Below, piece by piece: positions 57,988 to 59,765 of a DNA stretch of 64,000 nt. Every line of letters begins with the position of its first letter. The stretch's first letter is position 1. Under the pieces are notes generated by a model. That model did not search any database. It saw nothing but the letters and a program-made list of their open reading frames with translations, and was not told where the DNA came from. The stretch is from the human T2T-CHM13v2.0 reference genome, Homo sapiens, in NCBI RefSeq assembly GCF_009914755.1, contig NC_060932.1, one strand, 5' to 3'. The translations under genes and the position numbers were made by a program.

Positions 57988-59667
<1,680 letters not shown>

Positions 59668-59765
59668 GCAAGGCCGGTGGACCCCGCCCCGCCCCTTTGC
59701 GGGTACGGGGGGGCGCCAGGGGCCTCCCACTTATTCTACACCTCTCATGTCTCTTCACCATGCCA

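What the first reader, a model, noticed from the sequence alone, without database searches (positions are those of the whole stretch)
59655..59725. Chimera junction lies in the 28S L1-stalk at a (C/U)UGC end: possible RNase L cleavage plus RNA ligation fossil
Seen: the sense junction is ...GGGGTCCACCGGCCTTGC|TGAAATAAAAGAGG, with no inserted bases. The rRNA part ends in the GC-rich segment after GTGGGAGG, which corresponds to the L1-stalk helices. Recalled and not verified here: RNase L cuts 28S at a CUGCG in this stalk and leaves 2',3'-cyclic phosphate, and U6-L1 chimeras can arise by RtcB ligation of cyclic-phosphate RNA to L1 RNA. Inference: an innate-immune rRNA cleavage product was ligated to L1 RNA and retrotransposed. 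Alternative: template switching, since 28S (from memory) has TGAAATA about 10 nt downstream, matching the first 7 nt of the L1 part.
Basis: inference. Interest (0 to 1): 0.72.

Follow-up and report, generated by a model that had tools for sequence, protein, structure and literature searches.

The report
Catalogued 28S rRNA–LINE-1 chimeric retrocopy
This is an old LINE-1 insertion that carried a 372-base piece of 28S ribosomal RNA with it; the locus is already catalogued in print, but its rRNA piece stops at the same loop nucleotide as a second independent insertion, which suggests a pre-cut rRNA fragment was captured.

Summary
On the minus strand a 28S rRNA piece (59668-60039) abuts a 5'-truncated L1PA3 (57997-59667). 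There is no filler and no overlap, and a 15-bp target-site duplication brackets the whole. The rDNA of this genome does carry TGAAATA 10 nt past the break.

The locus is already published as one of 18 28S/LINE-1 chimeras (Cell Genomics 2026, Table S3).

New here:
- An independent chimera on chr11 ends at the same 28S nucleotide but joins L1 at a different point.
- Three other chimeras share a second end, 111 nt downstream.
- At least four copies share a 5' end.

So pre-formed 28S fragments with discrete ends were captured. This argues against a TGAAATA-guided switch followed by a 10-nt loss.

The RNase L reading is not supported at nucleotide level. The end is GC^G, not UN^N. It lies 1 nt 3' of U4031-G4032 in one numbering and about 31 nt 5' of it in another; I could not settle which numbering applies.

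Whether the join was a template jump or a prior RNA ligation stays open.

The parts
57973..57987 (-). Target-site duplication, 3' copy (sense ATTTTAGCACCATTC)
   Evidence: Identical 15-mer at 60040-60054. Also listed as the TSD in Table S3 of PMC13174262.
57988..57996 (-). Poly(A) tail of the L1 (9 A in sense)
   Evidence: T-run on the + strand directly after the L1 3' end ...GTATAATAATAAT.
57997..59667 (-). 5'-truncated L1PA3, 3' 1.67 kb (ORF2 3' part and 3' UTR)
   Evidence: 96-97% identical over about 1,668 nt to genomic L1 relatives. Called L1PA3 in Table S3. The first base T matches the T variant carried by 14 of 29 relatives.
59667..59668 (-). Flush 28S|L1 junction (C|T), with no filler and no microhomology
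   Evidence: The next 28S base would be G; the previous L1 base would be A.
59668..60039 (-). 28S rRNA fragment, 372 nt. It is nt 3675-4050 of the chr13 rDNA copy and LSU-rRNA_Hsa 3637-4011.
   Evidence: blastn to rDNA at 95% identity, Rfam LSU hit, Table S3. The CGCG at the 5' end has decayed to CACA (60036-60039).
59668..59725 (-). GC-rich tip between the conserved GUGGGAGG and UGAAAUACCAC strands (assigned to the L1 stalk). The piece stops at the last loop base of a local hairpin CGGCC(C/U)-UGC-GGGCCG.
   Evidence: Local 31-nt folds of the rDNA and of the chr7 copy both give this hairpin, with non-significant z-scores. The Rfam model pairs GUGGG with CCAC around a 60-nt insert.
60040..60054 (-). 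Target-site duplication, 5' copy
   Evidence: Table S3.

Best explanation
One L1PA3 retrotransposition event carried a pre-formed fragment of 28S rRNA at its 5' end. Reverse transcription began on the L1 poly(A) at a nicked target. It copied 1.67 kb of L1 RNA and then continued, with no gap and no overlap, on a roughly 376-nt 28S fragment. The 3' end of that fragment was the last loop base of a small hairpin in the GC-rich tip I assign to the L1 stalk. Its 5' end lay at about nt 3675. The product was sealed with a 15-bp target-site duplication.

I commit to an end-to-end template jump of the L1 reverse transcriptase onto the free 3' end of the fragment as the joining step.

Shown: single event, flush join, a discrete and recurrent 28S end.
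Inferred: the fragment existed before the join; the join was a template jump rather than a ligation.

The core (one event capturing a pre-cut fragment) I hold at about 0.85. The figure below is for the template-jump version.
For: - A 15-bp TSD brackets 28S plus L1 plus poly(A). The locus is listed as a chimeric insertion that was also predicted from the multiple-species alignment.
- The chr11 chimera ends ...GGCCTTGC|TAAGAAACTC. That is the same 28S base, a different L1 position (relatives read GGATTAAGAAAC in 20 of 29) and a different target site.
- A genome-wide pattern search for this 28S end followed by a non-G found 5 places. Only chr8 and chr11 are 28S-derived.
- A second end...GGCCGCGCGC followed by A where rDNA has C, is shared by the chr1, chr2 and chrX copies. 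These are 3 of 3 zero-mismatch hits. In chr1 and chr2 the A is the first L1 base; the chrX flank was not read.
- 5' ends fall at nt 3673-3676 in the chr8, chr11, chr1 and chr10 copies. The paper reports frequent starts near 3,636 in its own numbering.
- In the 5 chimeras whose joins I read, the L1-side join follows A, U, A, A, A. That carries no common nuclease signature, which fits a polymerase simply leaving the L1 template.
Against: - All 5 joins I read are flush, with no extra bases. From memory, R2-type template jumps often add bases, so this fits ligation at least as well.
- All three distinct 28S ends finish in C (UGC^G, AUC^G, CGC^C). That fits a pyrimidine-specific RNase leaving a cyclic phosphate, which is a ligase substrate. 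U6/L1 chimeras are reported to form by RtcB ligation (PMC6789731; listing and abstract only).
- The 7-nt TGAAATA match 10 nt past the break (chance about 0.1-0.3%) is unexplained by this model.
- No RNA species with these ends was shown here.
Confidence: 0.45

Rival explanations
1. Same pre-formed 28S fragment, but joined to an L1 RNA fragment by an RNA ligase (RtcB type) before reverse transcription. The 28S end was made by an RNase other than RNase L that cuts after pyrimidines and leaves a 2',3'-cyclic phosphate, such as an RNase A-family enzyme like angiogenin.
For: - Flush joins in 5 of 5 chimeras read.
- All three distinct 28S ends finish in C, two of them C^G.
- There is precedent for U6/L1 (PMC6789731; listing and abstract).
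- The catalogue paper names ligation or template switching for sense-oriented 28S chimeras.
Against: - The L1 side follows a pyrimidine in only 1 of 5 joins, so the same nuclease did not make the L1 5' end.
- C is common in this GC-rich stretch, so three C ends is weak evidence.
- No end chemistry can be read from DNA.
Confidence: 0.25
2. RNase L, activated by 2-5A, cut 28S in the L1 stalk. The cyclic-phosphate product was ligated by RtcB to L1 RNA and then retrotransposed.
For: - Rath et al. (bioRxiv 10.1101/484675; passages) report dominant RNase L sites at 28S 1056 and 4032, a lesser one at 4031, and place 4031/4032 in the L1 stalk.
- With an offset of 17 between this rDNA copy and the 5070-nt numbering, the loop reads U4031 G4032 C4033. 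The fossil end would then be 1 nt from the dominant site. The offset comes from two recalled landmarks placed.
- U is rare in this stretch, so a U falling at 4031 is a fairly specific fit.
- The end recurs in two loci.
Against: - Both fossils end after the C (GC^G), not after UN. The C is 28S-templated and absent from L1 at both joins.
- Under an older 5025-nt numbering, 4031/4032 would instead be about U4080 C4081, 31 nt away. That is the end of the chr7 chimera, not this one (the offset is an estimate).
- The L1-side joins fit UN^N in 1 of 5.
- RNase L is reported to restrict L1 mobility (PMC3973342; title and abstract only).
Confidence: 0.1
3. Internal template switch guided by the 7-nt identity TGAAATA between L1 and 28S, followed by loss of the 10 nt GGGCCGCCGG. 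The loss would come either from the polymerase skipping the 3' strand of the hairpin or from a later genomic deletion.
For: - The 7-nt match sits exactly 10 nt past the break, with a chance of 0.13-0.27%.
- The missing 10 nt are the whole 3' strand of the locally predicted hairpin.
- The chr10 copy ends in TGAAA plus an A-rich tail, so this A-rich site can engage the L1 machinery.
Against: - The chr11 chimera has the same 28S end with an L1 join (TAAGAAAC) that has no such match.
- No direct repeats flank the 10 nt.
- The other indels in this GC-rich stretch are shared by 4-5 independent copies. They are therefore ancestral rDNA states, not signs of a deletion-prone locus.
Confidence: 0.08

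Closest known systems
[quoted passage not shown]
   Same: This very locus is a row of Table S3: hg38 chr8:69688336-69690012 L1PA3 plus chr8:69690014-69690385 LSU-rRNA_Hsa 3637-4011, TSD ATTTTAGCACCATTC. The class has 18 members, mostly in sense orientation, often starting near 3,636.
   Different: In the passages I read, the paper stresses the common start and the region 3,636-4,115. It does not give nucleotide-level 3' ends, the hairpin position or the shared ancestral variants. The search listing counts 'RNase L' 3 times in the bioRxiv version held under the same work, but I could not read the context.
U6/LINE-1 chimeras formed by RtcB ligation (PNAS 2019, PMC6789731)
   Same: A non-coding RNA with a defined 3' end is fused in sense to variably truncated L1, inside one TSD.
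   Different: U6 is full length and naturally carries a cyclic phosphate. Here the partner is an internal rRNA fragment whose end chemistry is unknown. I saw only the listing and abstract.
Template-switch chimeric retrogenes (Buzdin and colleagues, 2002-2003; recalled, not read here)
   Same: 5' partner RNA plus 3' L1 part, a single TSD, poly(A) only at the L1 end.
   Different: That model allows switching to any point on the acceptor. Here the acceptor ends recur at single nucleotides in independent events.
RNase L cleavage of 28S rRNA at the L1 stalk (Iordanov 2000, not held; Rath et al. bioRxiv 10.1101/484675)
   Same: Same stalk. In one numbering it is the same 3-nt loop.
   Different: The fossil end is after C, not after UN. 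It is offset +1 or about -31 nt depending on the numbering.

Membership tests
L1-mediated chimeric retrocopy (one TPRT event) | A target-site duplication brackets both parts together | tested here: met
   15-bp ATTTTAGCACCATTC at 57973-57987 and 60040-60054.
L1-mediated chimeric retrocopy (one TPRT event) | Poly(A) only at the L1 3' end; the partner is in sense and directly abutting | tested here: met
   A9 at 57988-57996; flush C|T join at 59668|59667.
L1-mediated chimeric retrocopy (one TPRT event) | L1 endonuclease-like target (TT/AAAA type) | tested here: not met
   The site reads AT/ATTT. Table S3 scores 'EN motif: No'. This feature is common in the class but not required.
L1-mediated chimeric retrocopy (one TPRT event) | Both parts appear together in the species alignment | not testable with these tools
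   No ape genomes are held. Table S3 flags found_by_msa_prediction = 1.
RNase L cleavage product | 3' end follows UN (UN^N) | tested here: not met
   The end is ...UUGC^G in the fossils and CUGC^G in present rDNA. The consensus is as stated.
RNase L cleavage product | End coincides with mapped sites 28S 4031/4032 | tested here: inconclusive
   +1 nt if 4032 is counted in the 5070-nt numbering (offset 17 from recalled landmarks). About -31 nt in a 5025-nt numbering (estimate). The source papers and tables could not be read.
RNase L cleavage product | 2',3'-cyclic phosphate end; dependence on 2-5A | not testable with these tools
   A DNA fossil keeps no end chemistry.
Ligation-derived chimera (U6/L1 type) | The partner's 3' end is fixed while L1 join points vary | tested here: met
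   chr8 and chr11 share the 28S end at nt 4050. Their L1 parts are 1,677 and 2,774 bp.
Ligation-derived chimera (U6/L1 type) | Chimeric RNA exists before reverse transcription and depends on RtcB | not testable with these tools
   Needs RNA and cell experiments.
Microhomology-guided template switch | Shared bases at the join itself | tested here: not met
   0 nt are shared at the join. The 7-nt match is displaced by 10 nt.

The most novel reading that the evidence does not exclude
Exposed loops of the ribosome's L1-stalk region are cut by a stress or innate-immune RNase (RNase L or a pyrimidine-specific enzyme). The resulting cyclic-phosphate 28S fragments are ligated by RtcB to L1 RNA and written into the germline. 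Under this reading the recurrent 28S ends in L1 chimeras (nt 4050, 4081, 4161) are a fossil record of ancient rRNA cleavage.
Probability: 0.15. Interest if true: 0.65.

Novelty: already known. Interest (0 to 1): 0.3.

Why it matters
The locus and its class are in print, so the finding itself adds no new kind of element.

The useful part is at nucleotide level. Independent 28S/L1 chimeras reuse the same rRNA ends: two at nt 4050, three at nt 4161, and at least four starting at nt 3673-3676. This says L1 captured discrete rRNA fragments rather than switching templates at random.

It also gives exact ends to look for in cyclic-phosphate or 3'-end RNA sequencing. That makes the choice between ligation and template jump, and the identity of the nuclease, directly testable.

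Tried and rejected
RNase L site context:
- Iordanov 2000 (PMC85147) and Rath 2019 (PMC6754276) are not held.
- The Donovan 2017 supplement could not be read.
- Cooper 2014 found no RNase L-dependent 28S site (passages).
- Four papers that hold '4032' gave no rRNA context. Two further papers were irrelevant.
- A whole-word search for G4032/U4031/C4032/C4033 found nothing about RNase L. One snoRNA paper uses C4032 (listing only).

Structure:
- The Rfam LSU model treats the stalk tip as a 60-nt insert, so it gives no consensus structure there.
- The 106-nt minimum-energy fold pairs CCCUGC differently and is not better than shuffles (z -1.6).
- The local hairpin folds are also not significant against shuffles.

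Searches:
- My first end-pattern was too strict. It missed chr11 and returned one chance hit.
- DNA-mode searches list only rDNA copies, so my survey of 28S retrocopies is partial.
- The search of earlier findings was not open.

Rejected ideas:
- Private indels as a sign of a deletion-prone locus. They are shared by other copies.
- An untemplated U at the join. The T is L1-templated at chr11 and in half of the relatives at chr8.

Full report
**What is there**

Read on the minus strand, the window holds the following in order:
- a 15-bp target-site duplication, ATTTTAGCACCATTC (60054-60040)
- 372 nt of 28S rRNA (60039-59668)
- 1,671 nt of the 3' part of an L1 (59667-57997)
- nine A (57996-57988)
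- the same 15-mer again (57987-57973)

The 28S part matches Rfam LSU_rRNA_eukarya at 188.5 bits, E 4.6e-48. It aligns to a chr13 rDNA copy of the same genome at 355 of 372 columns with 4 gap columns.

The join reads ...GGCCTTGC|TGAAATAAAAGAGG. The rDNA continues GGGCCGCCGG and then TGAAATACC. Close L1 relatives read CTGCTCAA(T/G)GAAATAAAAGAGG, with 14 T, 14 G and 1 C of 29. Nothing is inserted and nothing is shared at the join. By the ruler the boundary is 59668|59667.

**Numbering**

I count 28S positions along the chr13 copy. It is 5,086 nt if the 28S starts and ends at the motifs I recalled.
- The piece runs from nt 3675 to nt 4050.
- RepeatMasker's 5,035-nt consensus calls this 3637-4011.
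- Two landmarks recalled from memory, the sarcin-ricin A4605 and m6A4220, both sit 17 nt higher in this copy. So nt 4050 should be 4033 in the 5,070-nt numbering.

**Already in print**

A Cell Genomics 2026 paper (PMC13174262) reports 18 28S rRNA/LINE-1 chimeras. I read the passages on 28S and two of three parts of Table S3.
- The segments have a median length of 269 nt and 83% are in sense.
- The paper attributes them to RNA ligation or template switching.
- Its table lists this locus: hg38 chr8:69688336-69690012, L1PA3; chr8:69690014-69690385, LSU-rRNA_Hsa 3637-4011. It gives the same TSD, cleavage site AT/ATTT and "EN motif: No".

**What the other copies show**

I located seven other 28S retrocopies that cover this region and read six of them in full.

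1. chr11 (L1PA3). It ends ...GGGTCCGCAGGCCTTGC|TAAGAAACTCACTC.
   - L1 relatives read GGATTAAGAAAC in 20 of 29, so the T is the first L1 base there as well.
   - The 28S end is the same nucleotide as in the window.
   - The L1 part is 2,774 bp against 1,677 bp here, and the target site differs.
   - A genome-wide search for this 28S end followed by a non-G, with up to 1 mismatch, gave 5 places. Only chr8 and chr11 have 28S similarity.
2. chr7. It runs on through GGGCCGCCGGTGAACTACC to nt 4081 and then joins L1.
3. chr1, chr2 and chrX. All read ...GGCCGCGCGC (nt 4161, with CpG decay) followed by A where rDNA has C. These are 3 of 3 zero-mismatch hits. In chr1 and chr2 the A is the first L1 base. 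The chrX flank was not read.
4. chr10. It ends in TGAAA plus an A-rich tail.
5. 5' ends. They fall at nt 3673-3676 in chr8, chr11, chr1 and chr10, and at or before about 3671 in chr7.

The joins are flush in all 5 chimeras whose joins I read.

All of these copies carry CCTTGC where present rDNA has CCCTGC, except chr1, which is deleted there. Several also share a 3-nt gap and GGGG-GCGGGG. These are old rDNA states, not private mutations of this locus.

**What follows from this**

Independent events reuse single-nucleotide 28S ends while the L1 join points differ. The simplest reading is that discrete 28S fragments existed first and were captured at their 3' ends.

chr11 reaches the same end with no such homology, no direct repeats flank the 10 nt, and the locus shows no private indels.

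The 7-nt match remains unexplained. Its chance is 0.13-0.27% per random L1 position.

**Where the end sits**

In local 31-nt folds of both the rDNA and the older chr7 version, the piece stops at the last base of a UGC loop closed by CGGCC(C/U)/GGGCCG. The missing 10 nt are the 3' strand of that hairpin.

These folds are no better than shuffles, and a 106-nt fold pairs the region differently. Rfam has no consensus structure for the stalk tip. The loop assignment is therefore an inference, helped by recalled homology to bacterial helix 78.

**RNase L**

Rath et al. (bioRxiv 10.1101/484675; passages) report a UN^N consensus. They find dominant 28S sites at 1056 and 4032 and a lesser one at 4031. 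They place 4031/4032 in the L1 stalk and equate them with Iordanov's primer-extension sites.

- In the 5,070-nt numbering these would be U and G of the loop, and the fossil end is the next base, C.
  - U is rare in this stretch, so a U falling at 4031 is a fairly specific fit.
  - Site 1056 also fits UC^U in this copy.
- Iordanov's paper predates that numbering. With my estimated offset for the 5,025-nt sequence, 4031/4032 would be U4080 C4081. That is the end of the chr7 chimera, 31 nt from this one.

I could not read either source to decide between the two.

Either way, both fossils end after a templated C (GC^G), which is not UN^N. RNase L is also reported to restrict L1 mobility (PMC3973342; title and abstract).

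**Ligation or template jump**

- For ligation: the joins are flush, and all three distinct 28S ends finish in C, two of them C^G. This would suit a pyrimidine-specific RNase that leaves a cyclic phosphate. U6/L1 gives a precedent (abstract).
- For a template jump: the L1 side follows A, U, A, A, A. It fits a pyrimidine cut in 1 of 5 and UN^N in 1 of 5, as expected if the polymerase simply left the L1 template.

I lean slightly to a template jump onto a free fragment end. My split:
- template jump: 0.45
- ligation after a non-RNase L cut: 0.25
- RNase L plus ligation: 0.10
- TGAAATA switch plus loss of 10 nt: 0.08

**Verdict**

The locus and its kind are already known. The recurrent exact ends are a small addition that makes the mechanism testable.

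Noticed in passing
window 59688-59982: The RefSeq 'silencer' element given in the hub's annotation lies wholly inside the 28S fragment. A reporter-assay call on rRNA-derived sequence may reflect multi-copy mapping or GC content rather than local regulation.
   Followed up: no
window 60036-60039; L049, L050, L046, L045: The 5' ends of five independent 28S retrocopies fall within a few nt of each other: nt 3673-3676 in four and about 3671 in chr7. They sit in the 5' strand of a helix (GCAUCGCG paired with CGCGAUGU in the Rfam model). This looks like a fixed fragment end or a hard stop for the reverse transcriptase.
   Followed up: partly
L050 (chr1), L042 (chr2), C23:107502094-107502123 (chrX): A second recurrent 28S 3' end at ...GGCCGCGCGC (nt 4161) is shared by three chimeras of different L1 subfamilies (L1PA5, L1PA3, L1PA2). 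RepeatMasker coordinates (4115, 4125, 4116) hide the identity because of CpG decay.
   Followed up: partly
L045, L046, L049, L050 and window 59668-59725: The retrocopies share CCTTGC, a 3-nt gap and GGGG-GCGGGG where present rDNA differs. The rDNA array appears to have changed at these stalk-tip positions since the insertions, by concerted evolution.
   Followed up: partly
L046 (chr10, CHM13 C10:50.55 Mb): A 28S retrocopy (nt 3676-4065) ends in TGAAA followed by an A-rich tail and has no L1 part. It looks like direct priming on the A-rich TGAAATA of 28S.
   Followed up: no
L044 (chr6, CHM13 C6:145.56 Mb): A 28S copy holds nt 3909-3996 and 4183-4336 but lacks the 186 nt between them (stalk tip and the next expansion segment). 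It is followed by non-L1 sequence.
   Followed up: no
Table S3 of PMC13174262: 7 of the 18 published 28S/L1 chimeras are L1PA3. This may reflect detection bias or a burst in one period.
   Followed up: no
window 61622-61904: Sub-threshold Metazoa_SRP and mir-1268 Rfam matches, as expected of an Alu element.
   Followed up: no
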